Shown: positions 1,488 to 64,000 of the stretch, in pieces | Layout of the letters: every line of letters starts with the position of its first letter | How positions within the stretch are numbered: the stretch's first letter is position 1 | From: the human T2T-CHM13v2.0 reference genome, Homo sapiens | Length of the DNA: 64,000 nucleotides | NCBI RefSeq assembly: GCF_009914755.1 | Contig: NC_060935.1 | Reading direction: 5' to 3' (one strand) | Translations under genes and position numbers: made by a program | The notes under the pieces: model-generated | Told to the model about the DNA's origin: nothing | Databases searched by the model: none | What the model saw: the letters and a program-made list of their open reading frames with translations, nothing else

Positions 1488-2950
1488 CCTCAGCAAAAAA
1501 ACAAAGCTGGAGGCATCATGCTACCTGAATTCAAACTATATTACAAGGCTACAGTAACCAAAACAGCATGGTACTGGTACCAAAACAGAGATAAAGACCA
1601 ATGGAACAGAACAGAGCCCTCAGAAATAATACCACACATCCACAAACATCTGATCTTTGACAAACCTGACAAAAACAAGAAATGGGGAAAGGATTCCCTA
1701 TTTAATAAATGGTGCTTGGAAAACTGGCTAGCCACATGTAGAAAGCCAAAACTGGATCCCTTCCTTACACCTTATACAAAAATTAATTCAAGGTGAATTA
1801 AAGACTTAAATGTTAGACCTAAAACCATAAAAGCCCTAGAACAAAATCTAGGCAATACCATTTAGGACCTAGGCATGGGCAAGGACTTCATGACTAAAAC
1901 ACCAAAAGCAATGGCAACAAAAGCCAAAATAGACAAATGGGATCTAATGAAACTAAAGAGCTTCTGCAGAGCAAAAGAAACTACCATCAGAGTGAACAGG
2001 CAACCTACAGAATGGGAGAAAAATTTTGCAATCTACCCATCTGACAAAGTGCTAATATACAGAATCTACAAAGAACTTAAACAAATTTACAAGAAAAAAA
2101 CAAACAACCCTATCAAAAAGGGGGCAAAGGATATGAACAGACACTTCTCAAAAGAAGACATTTATGCAGCCAACAGACACATCAAAAAATGCTCATCATC
2201 ACTGGTCATTAGAGAAACGCAAATCAAAACCACAATGAGATACCATCTCACCCCAGTTAGAATGGTGATCATTAAAAAGTCAGGAAACCACAGATGCTGG
2301 AAAGGATGTGGAGAAATAGGAATGCTTTTACACTGTTGGTGGGAGTGTAAACTAGTTCAACCATTGTGGAAGACAGTGTGGCGAGTCTTCAAGGATCTAG
2401 AACTAGAAATACCATTTGACCCAGTGACCCCATTACTGGATATATACCCAAAGGATTACAAATCATGTGACTATAAAGACACATGCACACATATGTTTAT
2501 TGCAGCACTATTCACAATAGCAAAGACTTGGAACCAACCCAAATGTCCAACAATGATAGACTAGATTAAGAAAATGTGGCACATATACACCATGGAATAC
2601 TATGCAGCCATAAAAACGGATGAATTCTTGTCCTTTGCAGGGACGTGGATGAAGCTGGAAACCATCACTCTGAGCAAACTATCACAAGGACAGAAAACCA
2701 AACACCACATGTTCTCACTCATAGGTGGGAATTGAACAATGACTACATATGGACACAGGGCGGGGAACATCACACACTGGGACCTGTCGTGGGGTGGGGA
2801 ACTGGGGGAGGTATAGCATTAGGAGAAATACCTAATGTAAATCACGAGTTAATGGGTGAGCAAAACAGCATAGCACATGTATACCTATGTAACAAACCTG
2901 CACGTTGCGCACATGTACCCTAGAACTTAAAGTAAAAAAAAAAAAAAAGA
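1488..2950 (+). mobile_element. 5'-truncated L1PA (L1PA4-6-like): ORF2 C-terminal remnant, 3'UTR and poly(A)
   Basis: ORFs 1518-1796 and 1875-2564 translate to the L1 ORF2p C-terminus ([13 protein letters not shown]..., [25 protein letters not shown]) and are interrupted by a stop. G-rich 3'UTR and A-tail. Probable TSD aactgattgt/aactgtttgt. Confidence 0.95.
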
Positions 2951-37100: not shown

Positions 37101-38949
37101 AACTTTTTAAAAACACGTCATGACGTTATATAACTCTGTAACTTTAAACATGTTTCTGTCAAAAACACCCACTCTCTTCCTAGGAATTTTTATCGTAATG
37201 TTTTAGTCCCTTAGTTATTACCCCTCCAAAATTACCCATATTTCTATACACTAGATTATTTGTTGCAGCATCTATCTCTCCTTCTGACAGTAGTTCCTGT
37301 TATAAGGTTTCACTTACTGATTATTAAAGGTTTATAATGTGGTTGCATGAATGCATGGCAAAAAGGAGAAAGGTATGATGTGGGCAGAACAGATGAATTG
37401 CAGATAACAGGAATGGAATATAAAGAAAAAAGTATATAAAAAGGATTTTGGTGGAAATGGTCAGGAATAGAGAATTTAAGTGGCTAACTGAGAATATGAC
37501 AGAGTTGGAATTATATGCAAGTAAAACATGCATTGATTGTAGATCTGCAGGGACCAGATAAAACATGAGGAAGTTAGATGAAGTGCAAGAAGATTGGATT
37601 TACATGAATAAGAGATATAATATTTGGGTAAAATGAACTTGCTATATAGACAATAAACCAATGAGAGATAAGGTGGAGATAACTAGAATGTTGAAAGGAT
37701 AGACTGGAAATGGATGATCAAAAATACTGTAGGGAGAACAGGTATATTATGAATAAATAAAGGACCAGCTATGAGAGGAAAAGATAAAGAAAGTGATATT
37801 AGTCTAAGTATCAACAGAATTAATATATGTGGAAAATATTGAGAGGTTTGGGATTTTATTAGGTATAGAGAGGAATAAGAAGATGGCTATATTAGACATA
37901 AGTAAAGAAAACTTGGGATAATTGACCACTTGAAGAGGAATCAGCAGATAACAGAATCCACTCACTTTATTCAGATGTCACTGACTCATCAAGGTCCTCC
38001 TGAGATGGCTGGGTTGGTTAGGAGAGGATTTAAAATGTATGCAAAAAAAGTTGAGTCATCGGGACTAAGAAAGATGATACAGAGATTCCACTTTCTCTTC
38101 CTCCCATAGATAGAGAACACTGCCAAGCTAGGAAAGATTCCTTTATCCTGTACCTCAATCCCTCAGTCCCCATTTTTCCCTCCTCCTTCTGATGCTTTGA
38201 GATGTCTCTGAGGCAGAAGCTCAAGAGACCAAAAGAGATACAAGAGAGAAAAAAAGGCTGGGGCAGAGGACAGGGAAGGGGAATGTTTGGAAAGCTCAGG
38301 CCATAGGGTTTTGTCAGGAAGTTTCATGAAAGAGAGAATGTCAAGATACCCCTACGAACTCATACTTCCCTCTCTTGCCTTCCTGTTCCTTGTCAGTCTC
38401 CCCTTTCTATCATGTCATACTCCTGTTCAAAAGAAAGACACGGGCTGATATTCTAACTCAGATATATAATTTTGGGCAATTTATTTAACCTCTTTGGCCC
38501 TTACATTCCTAATCTACATAATAGGATTCATATGCCTGACAGGATTGTTGAGAGGAGTAAATGTCATTAATATATGTACAGATCCTGGAACATGACAGGG
38601 GCTCAACAATACTAGACAGTTCCTTCTTTATCTCCTGATGCCATATAGGTGACACTCATTAACTCCATGATGTCATACAAGGAGCACTGAATTGAGAGTT
38701 AGGGTTTCTGGGTTTGAGTTCCATGTTTGCATTGGATTTTTTTTTTTAATTTGGGGTTTTGTTGTATATGTTTGTTTTCCATATAATGATATCTATATAT
38801 ATTATGAAAATAACATACATGATAAGCATTTTAAGTTTGTGACAAGATTTGGCACCCTACTCAATCCACAGTATTCTGTGTCATATTGAGGTCCAGCAAA
38901 TTAATTACATGGGATTCACAGTCACATTGTAATTCACATCTGTAATGAA

Positions 38950-40768
38950 AGTAAATACTTTCATTACAAAAGGAAAAAAAAAATTAGCCAAAAGAAAGCA
39001 GCTACAGGCCCCATGAAAGTCTGAAACCTAGCAGAGAAGTCTTTTAACCTTAAAGTTCCAGAATAATCTCCTTTGACTCCATGTCCCATATCCAGGACAC
39101 ACTAGTGTGAGGGCTAGGTTCCCAAGGCCTTGGGCGGCTTCACCCCTGTGGCCTTGCAGGGTCAGCCCCCACAGCTACTCTCATGGGTTGGTGTTGAGTG
39201 CTTGTGGCTTTTCCAGGCACATGATGCAAACTGCTGGTGGCTCTACCATTCTGGGTTCTGGAGAAGGGGACCCTCTTCTCACAGCTTCACTAGGCAGTGC
39301 CCATGTGGGTTCTCGGTGGTGGCATCAACCCCACATTTTCCCTCTGCACTTCCCTAGTAGAGGTTCTCTGTGAGGGCTCTGCTCCTGTGGCAGGCTTCTG
39401 CCTGAACATCTAGGCTTTTCCATATATCCTCTGAAATCTAGGTGGGGGCTCCCAAGCTTCAACTCTTGCATTCTGTGCACCTACAGGCTTAACACCACTT
39501 GGAAGCCACCAAGGCTTATAGCTTGCACCCTCTGAAGCAGTGGCCTGAGCTGTACCTGGGCCCCTTTTAGCCATGCCTGGAGTTGAAGCAGCTGGGATGA
39601 AGGGAGCACTGTCCCAAGGCTGTGCAGAGCAGTGGGAACCTGGGTATGGCCCTTGAAACCATTCCCTCCTAGGCCTTTGGGCCTGTGATGGGAGGGGCTG
39701 CCACAAAGGTCTCTGAAATGCCTTCAAGTCTTCTCATTGTCTTGTCTATTAGCACTTTGCTCCTCTTTACATATGCAAATTTCCACAGCCTGCTTGAATT
39801 CCTTCCCTGAAAATGGACTTTTCTTTTCTACCACATGGTCAGGCTGCAAATTTTCCAAACTTTTATACTCTGCTTCCCTTTTAAATATAAGTTCCAATTT
39901 CACATCATTTCTTTACTCACACATCTGAGCATAGGCGATTAGAAGCAGCTAGACTACATCTTGAACACTTTGTTGTTTAAAAATTTCTTCCAGCAGATAC
40001 CCTAAATCATCACTCTCAAGTTCAAAGTCCCACAGATCCCTAAAGCAGGGGAACAATGCAGCCAACCTCTTTGCTAAAGCATAGCAAAAGTGACCTTTAC
40101 TCCAGTTCCCAATAAGTTCTTTATTTCCATCTGAGACTTCCTCAGCCTGGACTTCAACATCCATATCACCATCAGCATTTTGGTCACAACAATTTAACAA
40201 GTCTCTAGGAAGTTCCAAACTTTCCCTCATCTTCCTGTCTTCTTCTGAGCCCTCCACACTCTTCCAACTGTCAGGCCTCTGAGCCCAGGCTAAGCCATCA
40301 TATCCCCTGTGACCTGCATGTACACATCCAGATGGCCAGTTTCTGCCTTAACTGATGATATTCCACCACAAAAGAAATGAAAATGGCCTGTTCCTGCCTT
40401 AACTGATGACATTATCTTGTGAAATTCCTTCTCCTGGCTCATCTTGGCTCAAAAGCTCCTCTACTGTGCACCTTGTGACCCCCACTCCTGCCCGCCAGAG
40501 AACCCCCCTTTGACTGTAATTTTCCTTTACCTACCCAAATCTCATAAAATGGCCCCACCCCTATCTCCCTTTGCTGACTCTCTTTTTGGACTCAGCCCAC
40601 CTGCACCCAGGTGAAATAAACAGCCTTGTTGCTCACTCAAAGCCTGTTTGGTGGTCTCTTCACATGGATGCGAGTGAAACCAACTTCTGCCCACTACCCA
40701 GTTCCAAAGTTCCTTCCACATTTTCAGATATCTTTATAGCAATGCCCCACTTCTCAGTACTAATTTTC
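38950..40768 (-). mobile_element. MaLR internal sequence (MST/THE1-int), truncated, 3' LTR missing
   Basis: atctcctttgactccatgtccca...ctctgcacttccctagtagagg...ccccacttctcagtactaattttc, directly abutting the MSTA LTR. Confidence 0.85.
40269..40679 (+). mobile_element. LTR7 (HERV-H) solo LTR
   Basis: tgtcaggcctctgagccca...gccttaactgatgacatt...gaaataaacagcc...gtgaaa. 5-bp TSD ccaac at 40264-40268 and 40680-40684. Confidence 0.93.
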
Positions 40769-55468: not shown

Positions 55469-55646
55469 ACCTCTTGATTTCAAATTTTAAAGCCCTCCAT
55501 CAAAATGGGTCAGCAGAACAAGCCTTAAGCAGAGATGACATCTCAGAGATAAATCACTGCTGCTCTGGACCACGTCTACTCCTATGTACCTGCAGGACAG
55601 CAGAGACTTGAGCTGCAAAGGTGGCTGCTAGCCAAGATGAGTTTAT
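55469..55646 (+). repeat. 178-bp direct copy of 62644-62821
   Basis: Ungapped alignment with about 23 mismatches by hand count (~87% identity). Confidence 0.92.
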
Positions 55647-56176
55647 GTGGAAATTGAATCAGTAATAAAAAAATCTTTCATCAAAAAAATTTTAGGACCT
55701 GATGGCATTACTGCTGAATTCCACCAAATGTTTACAAAAAGCACTTACACCAATCCTTCTCCAACTCTTTAAAAAGAATCAAATAGGAGGAAGGATTTCC
55801 CAAACTCTTTATATAAGGCCAGCATTACTCTAACACCAAAGCTATAAAAGGACACTACAACAAGAGAAAATTCCAGGCCACTATCCTTGATAAACATACA
55901 TGCAAACTTCCTCAGCAAAATACTAGCAAACTCAATTAAACAATGCCTTAATAGGATCATCCACCATGATGGAGTGAGATTTATCTTTGAGATGTAAGAA
56001 TAATTTAACATACATAGATCAATAAATGTGACATACTACATTAACAGAATGAAGAATAAAAATATGATCATCAGATGCAGAAAAAGCATTTGACAATATT
56101 CAACACCCTTTCATAATAAAAATTCTCATCAAATTAGGTATAGAAGGAACATAGCTCAATACAATAAAGGCCCTAC

Positions 56177-61110: not shown

Positions 61111-62145
61111 CTATTTGAAATTTTGTGAATAAGAATGAAACAGGTAAAATTAGTTGTATAGGTAAAAGAGGTCAGATAAATGAGAATTTTTTGGACCATC
61201 TTATAGATTTTAGATCTTAGTCTAATGAAATGGACAGTTATGAAGCATTTTGAGCAAAGAGTGGTATTTTTAAAGATAAATATGTCTACTGGGTAGATAA
61301 TTTATTGCAAGTGGCAAGAGTATAAAGAGATTAGTGTAGGACACTATGGCAGTAGTCTAGGTGAGAGCTTCTGATAGTTTAGTGTTAGACTGGTGTCAAA
61401 GACTACACCCATATTTCTGGCATAAGCAACCAGTTTGGTAGAAGTTTATTGAGATAGGAAAAAATGGGAGGATGAGCAGGGACATGACAGCAATAGAAAG
61501 GGCAAGAGCAGTTTCCAGTTTCCCAAAGAGGATATAGTATTGTATATTTAAACAAGTATAATATATACTAAAATATTCAGTAATACCACTATAAGTTACT
61601 GAACCCAACTAAATACTTGATGTGCAAGAAGTCTCAGTTCAGTGGGGAGATGGACATGTTCCTTGGACATTAGGATCCCAGGTCCTAGTGTCAAATGATC
61701 AGAAGTAGCAAATTAAGAAGTGTAAGAAGGAATGGGAGCCATGATTTGAGGGTGCCTGTGAGATGAGCATTCCATGACAAGCCAGTAGTGAGTGCAAAAA
61801 GCACAGAAGCCTAAATCTTCATGATGTACAACATCATAGGTAAGAGCATACACTCTAGAACCAAACGCCTGGGATGTAATCCTGTTTCTCTGAGTAGCTA
61901 TAAGACATAGGTCAAGCTACATGACATATCTGCCTCAGCGTTATTCTATTAAATGAGGATTAGCCACAGCACCTATTTGATGGCATTGTTGTGAGGTTTA
62001 AATACACTGAGGAACATTTGAGCACTATACAAATATTAATTATGATGATACCCATGAAGGTGATGGTGATAAGAGTAGTAATAATGATGAAATTGATAAC
62101 ATGGGAGATGAGGGTGGAAGGGTAGAAAGGAAAAAAATATTGAAG

Positions 62146-62461
62146 GGATTGGGTGCAGTGGCTCATGCCTGTAGTCCTAGCACTTTGGGATTGAGCAGGA
62201 GGCAGGAGGATCCCTTGAACTCCAGAATTCAAGACTAGCTTGGGAAACATGATGAAACCCTGTCTCTATAAAACAATACAAAAATTAACTGGGTGTGATG
62301 GCACGTGCCTATAGTCCTAGTTACTCAGGAGGCTGAGGTGGGAGGATCACTTGAGTCCTGGCGGTCCAGGCTGCAGTAAGCCAAGATGATGCCACTGATG
62401 CATCTGGAGTGCAAGATGATGTACTCTCCAGCTTGGGAGACAGACCAAGACCCTGTCTCAA

Positions 62462-62516
<55 letters not shown>
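62146..62516 (+). mobile_element. AluJ with (CA)n tail
   Basis: Diverged Alu dimer followed by a (CA) array. Confidence 0.85.
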
Positions 62517-62518
<2 letters not shown>

Positions 62519-62844
62519 CTTCAGCATACAAGGCCCTTCTATATATAGAATGAATTGCAAGAAGACACAGCCTGCGAGATAGAGACCAATCAAAAGGCTT
62601 ATACAATTGTTCATAATTCACAAACTCACAGCAACACAAAACCACCTCTTGATTTCAAATGTTAAAGCTCTCCATCAAAATGGGTCAAGAGAGCAGGCAT
62701 TAGGCAGAGCTGACAGCTCAGAGGGAAATCGCTGCCACTCTGAACCACATCTACTCCTGTCTACCTGCAGGCCAGCAGGGACTTGAGCTTCAAAGGTGGC
62801 TGCTTGCCAAGATGAGTTTATTTGAAGCTATGGCTCTGCAGCCT

Positions 62845-63040
62845 CAATCATTAGCCCTCTCCCCCAGACCTGATCCCTTCTATTCACCTAAGCTTTCCCT
62901 CCACGCCCCAAGATAGGCCACTGGGAACCTCGGTAGACTGCTTCCTGAACAACAAAGTGCCTCATTAGCTACTTTTTAATGAGGTCACAGCCTGTGACTG
63001 CTCATTAATAGAGTGGTTAGTCAGCATCTCTAGGGGTAAA
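62845..63040. promoter_or_regulatory. Candidate olfactory-receptor enhancer or promoter (H/P-element or Greek-island-like)
   Basis: Four TAATGA/TCATTA sites (62848, 62962, 62977, 63002); ACTTTTTAATGA at 62971-62982; O/E-like tctctagggg at 63027-63036; non-repetitive DNA. Confidence 0.6.
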
Positions 63041-63616
63041 GGAGACTGAAGACAGAAGTCAGTGATAACAGAGCTCAGCCCAGGCGTAGCTGTGTTAGAG
63101 GGAGAAAGAACTTAGCAGAGACTCTTAGGCTTGTACTCTGATGTCTCCAGGGTCCCTTCCAGCTCTGAGACTATGATTCTGGAGAAGGACATCCAGAGGG
63201 ACCAGGTCTTTGGTGGGAAGAAGTGACAACAGAGTCAAGTGATCCAAGGTTCAGAACAGCTATTGATCTAAAGATATTCTTGAAGAAATCGAATGCTCTT
63301 TAAGTTCTCTTGGATGCTTTTGTAAATGGAATTTAGCTCTTGAAACTTTTTATAATCTTGCCTTCTATAACCACAGATTCTCTCGGTATTCCTCCATGTG
63401 TCCAAGTACAGATTCTTTGTGTTATTTTCCAAGTCTTTTAAAATTGTATTTGTCCTTGGAGTTAATTCATTGGCCCTCTTCTCTCCTCCCTGTATACTGT
63501 CCCCTAGACATCCTGTCCATTCACGGGGTTCCAACACATCACTCCTGCAGAGATGAAACTTCGGCATTGACTCATATCTTATATCTCCCACCAGGATTAA
63601 TATTGGAGCCTCCTAA

Positions 63617-64000
63617 TGTTACTGAGCAAGGGCTCACTGCCCAAAGAGCATAGAAGCCAGTACCATGTCACTAGCTTTTGAGAAAAACAGCTTTATTGCA
63701 AGTCAACTGGCAAGGAAACAGAAGGAAATGCTCAAATCTGTCTCCCTGAGCTGGGGACTGGGGCAGGTTTCATAGACAGAGTAATGAGGTGTGAATGAGG
63801 TAATGCTGGGAGGCGTGATCTGACTGGATTATGCCACGGGATGATGTCAGGGCTCAATCTGATTGGATCATGTGTTGTCTGCTTGTTAATTCCGTCCCTG
63901 TTTCTTGGACTAAGCCATTAGGTTCCACTCACGATTGTGTACTTCGTTCATCTGGGCATGCTCAAATTACCTAACTTGCAACCTAGGGTCTATGGCAACT
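63617..64000 (-). mobile_element. ERV1-class LTR (runs off the window end)
   Basis: tgttactgagcaagggctcactg...cagctttattgc (aataaa on minus strand)...gctcaaatctgtctccctgag, a MER4-group-like LTR 3' end. Confidence 0.6.

What the first reader, a model, noticed from the sequence alone, without database searches (positions are those of the whole stretch)
62845..63040. Candidate human OR gene-choice enhancer carrying the H/P-element homeodomain motif
Seen: within ~190 bp of non-repetitive DNA there are four TAATGA-type homeodomain sites (tcattag 62848, ctcattag 62961, ttaatgag 62976, ctcattaa 63001). One lies within ACTTTTTAATGA (62971-62982). There is also an O/E-like site (cccctagaga on the minus strand, 63027-63036), a weaker O/E-like site (ttcccagtgg, minus, ~62918) and a small palindrome gtcacag-c-ctgtgac between the homeodomain sites. 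Established: AACTTTTTAATGA is the extended Lhx2-type site shared by the mouse H element, P element and P3 promoter. Clustered Lhx2 plus Ebf sites define OR enhancers, and the mouse I7/Olfr2 (OR6A2 orthologue) cluster is the one containing the P element. Inference: this 12/13 match, about 29 kb from the nearest OR CDS in the window, may be a cis-element controlling choice frequency of OR6A2, OR2AG1/2 and neighbours. It could alternatively be a distal promoter of an OR beyond the window.
Basis: partly seen in the sequence, partly recalled or inferred. Interest (0 to 1): 0.8.

Follow-up and report, generated by a model that had tools for sequence, protein, structure and literature searches.

The report
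Human copy of mouse P-type element
This short stretch upstream of the odorant receptor gene OR10A5 is a true human relative of the mouse P element and P3 promoter, DNA switches that help a smell neuron pick which receptor gene to use, though its activity in people is untested.

Summary
Every motif sits at the stated coordinate. As bare motifs they are weak evidence. TAATGA is not enriched in the window (64 found, 64.2 expected). A cluster this tight arises in 28-36 of 1000 shuffles. The 12-mer also occurs in a masked repeat.

Homology is what settles it. Mouse and rat P-element and Olfr713 (P3) promoter sequences are printed in a supplement of PMC6744719. They align without gaps to the minus strand here: 6 mismatches to the 42-nt P/P3 consensus. 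The next best of 124 kb has 14, and the best of 200 shuffles has 12. All three homeodomain sites and the O/E-like site keep their order.

The element has a paralogue 31.7 kb downstream, outside the window and upstream of OR10A2. The 53-bp homeodomain core is identical in the two copies. By synteny the paralogue, not the window copy, occupies the mouse P position. The window copy occupies the position of the Olfr713 promoter-side copy.

Function in human olfactory neurons is inferred, not shown. I file it as a new member of a known kind, of moderate interest.

The parts
62714..63622 (+). Whole block conserved with the paralogue upstream of OR10A2 (here called el1). It is the best conserved non-coding part of a tandem duplication unit.
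   Evidence: 62714-63579 matches extended coordinates 94453-95309 at 85%, against 74-78% for five other colinear non-coding blocks; the alignments run to about 63622.
62797..62809 (.). NFI-type palindrome TGGCTGCTTGCCA, inside a 54-base run (62791-62844) identical in both human copies.
   Evidence: this pattern occurs only twice in the window, here and in the partial copy at 55622 (0.56 expected); perfect run of 54. A role as a binding site is inference.
62848..62853 (-). Outlying TAATGA homeodomain site.
   Evidence: The core is kept in the paralogue.
62918..62927 (-). Weak O/E-like site (ttcccagtgg on the minus strand).
   Evidence: Identical in the paralogue. Not within one mismatch of TCCCNNGGGA.
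62961..62968 (-). Homeodomain site HD3 (TAATGAG on the minus strand).
   Evidence: Aligns to the TAATGAG of the mouse and rat P and P3 sequences printed.
62971..62983 (+). Central extended homeodomain site ACTTTTTAATGAG (HD2). It matches 12 of 13 bases of the motif shared by H, P and the P3 promoter.
   Evidence: The motif is quoted in PMC5638857, PMC7804114 and PMC6744719.
62984..62998 (.). Palindrome gtcacag-c-ctgtgac between HD2 and HD1.
   Evidence: Identical in the paralogue. It aligns to the corresponding spacer of mouse P, printed. PMC4721658 mentions hemipalindromes in P.
63001..63008 (-). Homeodomain site HD1 (TTAATGAG on the minus strand).
   Evidence: Aligns to the TTAATGAG of mouse P segment 700-739.
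63027..63036 (-). O/E-like site (cccctagaga on the minus strand).
   Evidence: By eye, 10 of 12 bases match around the O/E site annotated in mouse P and P3. The paralogue reads TCCCCAGGGG, which is 9/10 to the consensus.
55469..55646 (+). Partial third copy of the 5' flank of the element (87% to 62644-62821). It is cut off by L1-like sequence and lacks the homeodomain cluster.
   Evidence: It keeps the NFI-type palindrome. 'L1-like' is my reading of the sequence, not a tool result.

Best explanation
The stretch is one of two human copies of a conserved homeodomain plus O/E module. In the mouse this module is known in two copies: the P element, and the promoter of Olfr713 (P3, Or10a5).

The window copy (el1) lies 21 kb upstream of the OR10A5 coding sequence. 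The second copy (el2, T2T chr11 about 6,914,535-6,914,776) lies 9.65 kb downstream of OR10A5 and 6.7 kb upstream of the first annotated exon of OR10A2. Both belong to an old tandem duplication of a unit made of module, upstream exon and OR coding exon.

Most likely mechanism: in olfactory sensory neurons Lhx2 (with Ldb1) binds the three TAATGA sites, the central one being the extended site. An Ebf/O/E factor binds the neighbouring O/E-like site. The bound module acts in cis, as a promoter-like enhancer, to raise the chance that the adjacent OR10A genes, above all OR10A5, are chosen.

Shown here: homology to rodent P/P3, synteny, gene-relative orientation, motif order and spacing, and excess conservation between the two human copies.

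Inferred: factor binding, enhancer activity and target genes in humans. Also inferred is that el1 corresponds to the mouse P3-promoter-side copy and el2 to P proper.
For: Homology.
- Against the published 42-nt rodent P/P3 consensus, el1 has 6 mismatches and el2 has 5. The next best place in 124 kb has 14. The best of 200 block shuffles has 12 (mean 15.6).
- Against the 40-nt P/P3/H consensus the figures are 4 and 3 mismatches, next best 9, null best 7.
- By eye, against the sequences printed, el1 matches rat P at 37 of 44, mouse P at 34 of 44, mouse P3 at 34 of 44, rat P3 at 34 of 44, and mouse H at only 20 of 44.
- Across the two overlapping mouse P 40-mers, el1 matches 61 of 77 without a gap, with HD1, HD2 and HD3 at the same spacing.
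- The O/E-like site matches the O/E site annotated in mouse P and P3.

Synteny.
- Mouse gene order is Olfr2, Olfr713, Olfr714, Olfr17. Human order is OR6A2, OR10A5, OR10A2, OR10A4, OR2D2 (hub table).
- Mouse P is at chr7:107047186-107048586. That lies between the Olfr713 coding sequence (107036157-107037107) and the start of Olfr714 (107070981), all on the plus strand.
- P lies 10.1-10.8 kb past the Olfr713 stop codon. el2 lies 9.65 kb past the OR10A5 stop codon.

Constraint.
- el1 and el2 are 85% identical, against 74-78% for the other non-coding blocks of the duplication.
- Identity peaks at 0.94-0.98 over the homeodomain cluster, with a 53-base perfect run at 62956-63008. All sites keep their spacing.
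- The exact dyad TCATTAAAAAGT-N3-TAATGAG occurs only at el1 and el2 in the whole T2T genome.

Function of the mouse relatives, read as passages in papers.
- P regulates 10 of 24 OR genes of its cluster (PMC5638857).
- The extended homeodomain site, when multimerised, raises transgene choice (PMC7804114; bioRxiv 10.1101/2022.05.05.489571).
- Olfr713, Olfr714 and Olfr2 fall in Lhx2-knockout neurons, log2 fold change -2.4 to -3.2 (Monahan 2017 source data).
Against: - No human functional data were available. I found no accessibility, LHX2 or EBF data for human olfactory neurons (searches; passages).
- Mouse P itself shows no Lhx2 or Ebf ChIP peak in bulk mature neurons. It is listed as 'Not included' among the Greek Islands. 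PMC8213819 says the same for Lhx2, Ebf1 and Ldb1. Binding at the human copy therefore cannot be assumed from the motifs.
- OR10A5, the gene el1 would serve, is barely expressed in human olfactory mucosa. It is above zero in 4 of 12 samples, maximum 3.0. OR10A2 is above zero in 12 of 12 samples, range 2.7-73.
- The O/E-like site of el1 is weaker than that of el2.
- The OR10A5 counterpart of the OR10A2 exon-2 splice acceptor reads CAT instead of CAG. This hints that the OR10A5 unit is decaying.
- High identity between el1 and el2 could partly reflect gene conversion rather than selection.
- The three or four sites that distinguish rodent P from P3 do not assign the human copies to either. By eye, position 10 is P-like, position 36 is P3-like, and position 35 is neither.
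- The distance to the coding sequence fits poorly with a P3-promoter equivalence: 21 kb in human against 5.0 kb from the mouse transcription start to the coding sequence.
Confidence: 0.55

Rival explanations
1. el1 is, or once was, the true upstream promoter of OR10A5, orthologous to the mouse Olfr713 (P3) minimal promoter. A transcription start and an unannotated non-coding first exon would lie just downstream of the O/E-like site, and it would not be a distal enhancer.
For: - The mouse P-like module upstream of Olfr713 is that gene's promoter (PMC6744719 passages; PMC4721658 figure legend).
- el1 lies upstream of OR10A5 in the same gene-relative orientation.
- Conservation between el1 and el2 continues about 590 bases past the O/E-like site, to about 63622. 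Mouse Olfr713 exon 1 is 559 bases long.
Against: - Expert curation from human olfactory mucosa RNA-seq gives OR10A5 a single exon with no upstream exon.
- It gives OR10A2 a first exon 6.7 kb downstream of el2, which begins without an acceptor AG as a real first exon would.
- That exon's own upstream region shows no similarity to el1 or el2.
- By eye I saw no splice donor conserved between el1 and el2 at the end of the conserved block.
- el1 is 21 kb from the coding sequence, against 5 kb in the mouse.
- Low OR10A5 expression means a missing exon is weak evidence.
Confidence: 0.25
2. el1 is a decaying relic. It is a real homologue of the P/P3 module but no longer functional in humans. Its likeness to el2 would be kept up by gene conversion from the active copel2 that serves the well-expressed OR10A2.
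For: - OR10A5 is almost silent in 12 human olfactory mucosa samples, while OR10A2 is expressed in all 12.
- The O/E-like site of el1 is 8/10 to the consensus against 9/10 in el2.
- el1 differs from the rodent consensus at one more position than el2.
- The OR10A5-side splice acceptor is lost.
- A third copy at 55469-55646 is already broken.
Against: - The three homeodomain sites, the palindrome and the NFI-type palindrome are all intact in el1.
- They lie in two separate short perfect runs of 54 and 53 bases, with 82-92% identity between them. That pattern fits site-wise constraint better than a single conversion tract.
- The OR10A5 reading frame is intact according to the hub's table.
Confidence: 0.17
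3. The motif cluster is a chance grouping of AT-rich motifs, or part of a dispersed transposon that carries them by default.
For: - TAATGA is not enriched in the window.
- Clusters this tight arise in about 3-4% of shuffled windows.
- The same 12-mer lies in a masked repeat at 2269-2280.
Against: - The match to the rodent P/P3 42-mer is 6 mismatches, against at least 12 in 200 shuffles.
- Only 3 places in the genome match the 601-base query, all local.
- The exact dyad occurs only at el1 and el2 genome-wide. One-mismatch matches are at control level, 10 against 9.
- A very old repeat below the search's sensitivity cannot be excluded. It would predate the human-rodent split and would not change the homology.
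Confidence: 0.03

Closest known systems
Mouse P element (OR enhancer between Olfr713 and Olfr714, chr7:107047186-107048586, mm10)
   Same: - Homologous sequence: 61 of 77 bases ungapped by eye, and 6 of 42 mismatches to the P/P3 consensus.
- Three homeodomain sites, the central one being the extended site shared with H.
- A neighbouring O/E-like site.
- The same orthologous OR cluster and the same orientation relative to the OR10A genes.
   Different: - The window copy lies upstream of OR10A5, not between the Or10a5 and Or10a4 orthologues. The copy in that position is the paralogue el2, outside the window.
- The central site has T instead of A at the first of its 13 bases.
- Function was shown by deletion in the mouse (as cited in PMC5638857). 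Nothing has been shown in humans.
Mouse Olfr713 (P3) minimal promoter
   Same: - Equally similar in the 44-base core: 34 of 44 by eye.
- It lies upstream of the Or10a5 orthologue, as el1 lies upstream of OR10A5.
- The O/E-like site is of the same type.
   Different: - The mouse module abuts the transcription start, 5.0 kb from the coding sequence.
- el1 is 21 kb from the OR10A5 coding sequence, and no exon is annotated there.
Mouse H element
   Same: It shares the extended homeodomain motif (12 of 13 bases) and the general layout of several homeodomain sites beside an O/E-like site.
   Different: There is no homology outside the motif (20 of 44 by eye). It lies in a different cluster, the mouse chr14 MOR28 cluster.
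Greek Islands (Lhx2/Ebf co-bound intergenic OR enhancers, Monahan 2017)
   Same: It is an intergenic stretch in an OR cluster with homeodomain and O/E-like motifs.
   Different: - The family is defined by ChIP and ATAC signal and mostly by a composite motif of juxtaposed Lhx2 and Ebf sites.
[quoted passage not shown]
- Mouse P itself was left out of the set for lack of Lhx2 and Ebf peaks.
Mouse and human J element (class I OR enhancer)
   Same: It has a cluster of homeodomain sites, including a near-identical extended site (AAACTTTTAATGA), plus an O/E-like site. It is conserved from mouse to human.
   Different: It belongs to a different locus and OR class. It has a class I-specific AAACTTTTC motif and a composite motif, neither of which was looked for here.

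Membership tests
Rodent P element / Olfr713 (P3) promoter homology family | Sequence homology to the shared P/P3 core beyond the 13-base motif | tested here: met
   6 of 42 mismatches to the published consensus (el2: 5). The next best place in 124 kb has 14, and the best of 200 shuffles has 12. By eye, 37 of 44 match rat P.
Rodent P element / Olfr713 (P3) promoter homology family | Three homeodomain sites, the central one being the extended site shared with H, in fixed order and spacing | tested here: met
   compared with the mouse P segments 663-702 and 700-739 printed. The alignment is ungapped over 77 bases and all three sites are in register. The description in PMC4721658 agrees.
Rodent P element / Olfr713 (P3) promoter homology family | Neighbouring O/E-like site of the CCCCAGAGA type | tested here: met
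   Window 63027-63036 (minus strand cccctagaga), compared with the mouse P and P3 O/E sites printed: 10 of 12 by eye including flanks. The distance to HD1 in the mouse could not be read from the printed fragments.
Rodent P element / Olfr713 (P3) promoter homology family | Location in the cluster orthologous to Olfr2-Olfr713-Olfr714-Olfr17 | tested here: met
   together with the hub's gene table (OR6A2, OR10A5, OR10A2, OR10A4, OR2D2).
P element proper (as opposed to the P3 promoter copy) | Lies between the Or10a5 and Or10a4 orthologues, about 10 kb 3' of the Or10a5 coding sequence | tested here: not met
   el1 lies 21 kb 5' of OR10A5. The paralogue el2 meets this feature: 9.65 kb 3' of the OR10A5 stop codon, against 10.1-10.8 kb in the mouse.
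P element proper (as opposed to the P3 promoter copy) | Deletion lowers the choice frequency of nearby OR genes in cis | not testable with these tools
   Only the mouse result is known, as cited in PMC5638857. The primary paper (Khan 2011) is not held.
OR proximal promoter | Transcription start within about 150 bases downstream of the homeodomain and O/E sites | tested here: inconclusive
   No exon is annotated at el1 or el2 (hub table; Barnes 2020 models). No conserved donor was seen by eye. OR10A5 is too weakly expressed for the absence to count for much.
Greek Islands (Monahan 2017) | Lhx2 and Ebf co-binding and accessibility within OR heterochromatin in mature olfactory neurons | not testable with these tools
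   No human data are held. The mouse P interval is listed with Ebf 'No' and Lhx2 'No'.
Greek Islands (Monahan 2017) | Composite motif of juxtaposed Lhx2 and Ebf sites | tested here: inconclusive
   The composite matrix was not available to me. [quoted passage not shown] The definition is.
H element | Homology to the core H sequence | tested here: not met
   Only the extended homeodomain motif is shared. By eye, 20 of 44 bases match the mouse H 44-mer printed.

The most novel reading that the evidence does not exclude
The mouse P enhancer may be the orphaned upstream module of an OR gene that rodents lost.

Humans still carry the ancestral arrangement of two tandem units, each made of a P-type module, an upstream exon and an OR10A coding exon (OR10A5 and OR10A2). 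The second module sits at the same distance past the OR10A5 stop codon (9.65 kb) as P sits past the Olfr713 stop codon (10.1-10.8 kb).

On this reading, P-type OR choice enhancers arise as gene-linked upstream modules that are copied along with their OR genes. They become free-standing cluster enhancers when the gene decays. The human pair (el1 with a weak O/E site and a near-silent OR10A5; el2 with a strong O/E site and a well-expressed OR10A2) would be a natural experiment on how module quality sets choice frequency.
Probability: 0.35. Interest if true: 0.55.

Novelty: new member of a known kind. Interest (0 to 1): 0.4.

Why it matters
OR gene choice has been worked out almost wholly in the mouse. 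The 2026 human developmental atlas whose passages I read (PMC13090377) still cites only rodent enhancers, and my two searches for human OR enhancer mapping found none. Only a handful of OR enhancers have been validated functionally; PMC8213819 counts six, P among them. Placing its human relatives precisely gives defined human sequences to test.

There are two copies with an identical homeodomain core but different O/E-like sites, next to two paralogous OR genes with very different expression. They could be tested in reporter mice, in human olfactory chromatin data, and against human variation in this cluster.

The arrangement also offers a concrete model for how OR enhancers are born from duplicated gene-linked modules. 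PMC6744719 raises that idea in passing.

The finding is not surprising in kind. A conserved orthologue of a known enhancer is to be expected, and standard conservation tracks would probably show it.

Tried and rejected
- Primary papers on the P element and the locus comparison could not be read. Bozza 2009, Khan 2011, Vassalli 2011, Lane 2001 and Markenscoff-Papadimitriou 2014 are not held. I therefore cannot say whether any of them already describes the human counterpart. That claim stays open.
- No mouse genome is available. All mouse and rat sequence came from MEME files in a supplement of PMC6744719, namely 44-, 40- and 26-base fragments. The full P interval and the P3 promoter could not be aligned, and no tree of the four copies could be built.
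- I looked for similarity between el1 or el2 and the promoter of the annotated OR10A2 first exon and its OR10A5-side counterpart. Only chance-level short words turned up. That promoter is therefore a different element.
- I looked for a splice donor conserved at the end of the el1/el2 block and saw none by eye. No splice-site scoring tool was at hand.
- The predicted-element files of PMC6744719 list mouse intervals only. Its text says the only human prediction is on chr7, so this chr11 element is not reported there.
- Literature searches for a description of the human element found none: (0 papers). These cover only the held open-access library.
- I considered a nuclear-receptor half-site reading of AGGTCA at 62981-62986 and dropped it. 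By eye, mouse P does not keep it.
- I considered dating the duplication by shared Alu insertions. I saw no Alu at colinear positions in the two units, which fits an old duplication. I did not pursue this formally.

Full report
**The observation.**
Reading 62400-63400 confirms each item of the finding at its stated place. There are four TAATGA-type sites, at 62848, 62962, 62977 and 63002. The 12-mer ACTTTTTAATGA is at 62971-62982. The palindrome gtcacag-c-ctgtgac is at 62984-98. Two O/E-like stretches lie at 62918-27 and 63027-36.

As bare motifs these are weak evidence.
- TAATGA occurs 64 times in the window against 64.17 expected.
- At least 3 sites within 46 bases arose in 36 of 1000 dinucleotide shuffles, and at least 4 within 160 bases in 28 of 1000.
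- The exact 12-mer also lies at 2269-2280 in a stretch that the hub lists as masked repeat.
- Neither O/E-like site comes within one mismatch of TCCCNNGGGA.

**Not a dispersed repeat, but a local duplicate.**
A 601-base query (62640-63240) against the window's own T2T assembly found three places.
- Itself.
- chr11:6914394-6914974, which is 86% identical over nearly the whole query.
- A 181-base fragment at window 55469-55649.

I fetched the 60 kb beyond the window and compared the two sides. Apart from many Alu matches, there is a colinear series of blocks:

| Unit 1 (extended window coordinates) | Unit 2 | Identity | Note |
|---|---|---|---|
| 62714-63579 | 94453-95309 | 85% | the element |
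| 64065-64303 | 95336-95568 | 76% | |
| 67618-67797 | 97122-97306 | 77% | |
| 71816-72871 | 101448-102706 | 74-78% | three blocks; unit 2 starts at the first exon of OR10A2 |
| 83906-85183 | 107937-109214 | 91.6% | the OR10A5 and OR10A2 coding exons |

So an old tandem duplication copied a unit made of element, upstream exon and OR coding exon. I call the window copy el1 and the downstream copy el2. After the coding exon, the element is the best conserved part.

Identity between el1 and el2 peaks at 0.94-0.98 in two places. One is 62755-62854, with a 54-base perfect run. The other is 62953-63027, with a 53-base perfect run at 62956-63008 that holds three homeodomain sites and the palindrome. 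Every site keeps its spacing in el2. In el2 the O/E-like site reads TCCCCAGGGG, closer to consensus than el1's TCTCTAGGGG.

In the 124 kb examined, only el1 and el2 have at least 3 TAATGA within 60 bases. In the whole genome the exact dyad TCATTAAAAAGT-N3-TAATGAG occurs only at these two places. With one mismatch allowed the count is 10 against 9 for the reversed control.

**Homology to the rodent P element and P3 promoter.**
No mouse genome is on hand. However, the MEME files in Additional file 6 of PMC6744719 print three kinds of fragment:
- 44-base stretches of the mouse and rat P element, Olfr713 (P3) promoter and H element;
- two overlapping 40-base stretches of mouse P, local positions 663-702 and 700-739;
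- the 26-base O/E sites of P and P3.

I scored the published consensus motifs over the 124 kb.

| Consensus | el1 mismatches | el2 mismatches | Next best place | Best of 200 block shuffles |
|---|---|---|---|---|
| 42-nt P/P3 | 6 | 5 | 14 | 12 (mean 15.6) |
| 40-nt P/P3/H | 4 | 3 | 9 | 7 |

By eye, the minus strand of el1 matches rat P at 37 of 44, and mouse P, mouse P3 and rat P3 at 34 of 44 each. It matches mouse H at only 20 of 44. Over the two overlapping mouse P stretches the match is 61 of 77 without a gap. All three homeodomain sites and the spacer that forms the palindrome are in register. The O/E-like site at 63027-36 matches the O/E site annotated in P and P3 at 10 of 12 with flanks.

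This fits the description of P in PMC4721658 (figure legend): three extended homeodomain sites, the central one identical to the H site, hemipalindromes, and stretches shared with the Olfr713 promoter. The element is therefore a true homologue of the P/P3 module. Its likeness to H is confined to the extended motif.

**Which rodent copy does it correspond to?**
- Mouse gene order is Olfr712-ps1, Olfr2, Olfr713, Olfr714, Olfr17. The human order is OR6A2, OR10A5, OR10A2, OR10A4, OR2D2 (hub table).
- Monahan 2017 supplementary file 1 gives P as mm10 chr7:107047186-107048586.
- The Barnes 2020 gene models give Olfr713 exon 1 at 107031174-107031732 and its coding sequence at 107036157-107037107. They give the Olfr714 start at 107070981. 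All are on the plus strand.

Mouse P therefore lies between Olfr713 and Olfr714, 10.1-10.8 kb past the Olfr713 stop codon. Human el2 lies 9.65 kb past the OR10A5 stop codon. In both species the extended site reads in the direction of the OR10A genes. This assumes that the local coordinates of PMC6744719 run along the plus strand, which is my inference.

So the positional counterpart of P is el2, outside the window. The window copy el1 sits where the P3-promoter copy sits, upstream of the Or10a5 orthologue.

The simplest history is one duplication before the primate-rodent split, with rodents later losing the OR10A2 orthologue. Neutral blocks of the two human units are only about 76% identical, and I saw no Alu shared at colinear positions. 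Both fit an old duplication.

This is not settled, for three reasons.
- The few positions that tell rodent P from P3 do not assign the human copies.
- The human cores are identical to each other, which may reflect constraint or gene conversion.
- el1 is 21 kb from the OR10A5 coding sequence, while the mouse P3 start is 5.0 kb from its coding sequence.

**Promoter or enhancer?**
The Barnes 2020 models give OR10A5 a single exon. They give OR10A2 a first exon at extended coordinates 101468-101762. That exon begins without an acceptor AG and ends at a canonical donor. It lies 6.7 kb downstream of el2, and its own upstream region has no similarity to el1 or el2.

So in humans the P-type modules are not at annotated transcription starts. 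This favours an enhancer-like reading. On the other side, conservation runs about 590 bases past the O/E-like site, a length close to the 559-base mouse Olfr713 exon 1. OR10A5 is also too weakly expressed for a missing exon to count for much. I keep the promoter reading as the main rival.

**Likely mechanism, and what speaks against it.**
From the mouse literature, read as passages:
- P regulates 10 of the 24 OR genes of its cluster.
- Multimers of the extended site raise choice probability.
- Olfr713, Olfr714 and Olfr2 drop in Lhx2-knockout neurons.

By homology, el1 most likely binds Lhx2 at its three sites and an O/E factor beside them. It would then raise, in cis, the choice probability of OR10A5 and perhaps its neighbours.

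Against this:
- Mouse P has no Lhx2 or Ebf peak in bulk mature neurons and was left out of the Greek Island set.
- There are no human functional data.
- OR10A5 is above zero in only 4 of 12 human olfactory mucosa samples (maximum 3.0). OR10A2 is expressed in 12 of 12 (2.7-73).
- el1 has the weaker O/E-like site.
- The OR10A5 counterpart of the OR10A2 exon-2 acceptor reads CAT.

el1 may therefore be the weaker, or a decaying, member of the pair.

**Novelty.**
The kind is known. I found no description of the human copies in the open library. The one bioinformatic screen that covered the human genome reports only a chr7 candidate. The primary P-element papers and the 2001 mouse-human comparison of this cluster are not held, so prior description cannot be excluded.

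I file it as a new member of a known kind. The most novel reading still open is that mouse P is the orphaned module of an OR gene lost in rodents, with humans preserving the intact two-unit arrangement.

Noticed in passing
L007:535-776 (extended window coordinates 94535-94776; T2T chr11:6,914,535-6,914,776): This is the paralogue el2, between OR10A5 and OR10A2. It has the same sites at the same spacing as el1 and a better O/E site (TCCCCAGGGG). It lies 9.65 kb past the OR10A5 stop codon, which matches the position of mouse P past Olfr713. OR10A2 is far better expressed than OR10A5 in human olfactory mucosa.
   Followed up: yes
window 55469-55646: A partial third copy of the element's 5' flank, 87% identical to 62644-62821. 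It breaks off where L1-like sequence begins, so it lacks the homeodomain cluster.
   Followed up: partly
window 62797-62809 and 55622-55634: An NFI-type palindrome, TGGC-N5-GCCA. These are the only two matches in the window, and both lie in copies of the element. The one at 62797 sits in a 54-base run identical between el1 and el2. It may be a further factor site of the module. NFI sites near OR genes are mentioned in the 2025 review.
   Followed up: partly
L005:9991-10000 and L006:1-9 (extended coordinates 83991-84009), compared with L008:4018-4037: The OR10A5-side counterpart of the OR10A2 exon-2 splice acceptor reads CAT where OR10A2 has CAG. OR10A5 may therefore no longer splice to an upstream exon in the way OR10A2 does.
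   Followed up: partly
window 38564-38966: Five TAATGA sites within about 400 bases, lying 450-850 bases upstream of OR6A2 exon 1 (minus strand). They overlap the start of the RefSeq 'enhancer' feature at 38851-39767. This may be OR6A2 promoter-proximal homeodomain sites.
   Followed up: no
window 2269-2280 (minus strand); also extended coordinate 116898 (minus strand, L009): The same 13-mer, GACTTTTTAATGA, occurs in a masked repeat in the window and again near OR10A4. This shows that the extended homeodomain motif alone is not specific to OR control elements.
   Followed up: partly
window 62465-62516: A (CA)26 microsatellite about 200 bases upstream of the conserved block, following the masked repeat at 62120-62399. 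It could serve as a polymorphic marker next to the element.
   Followed up: no
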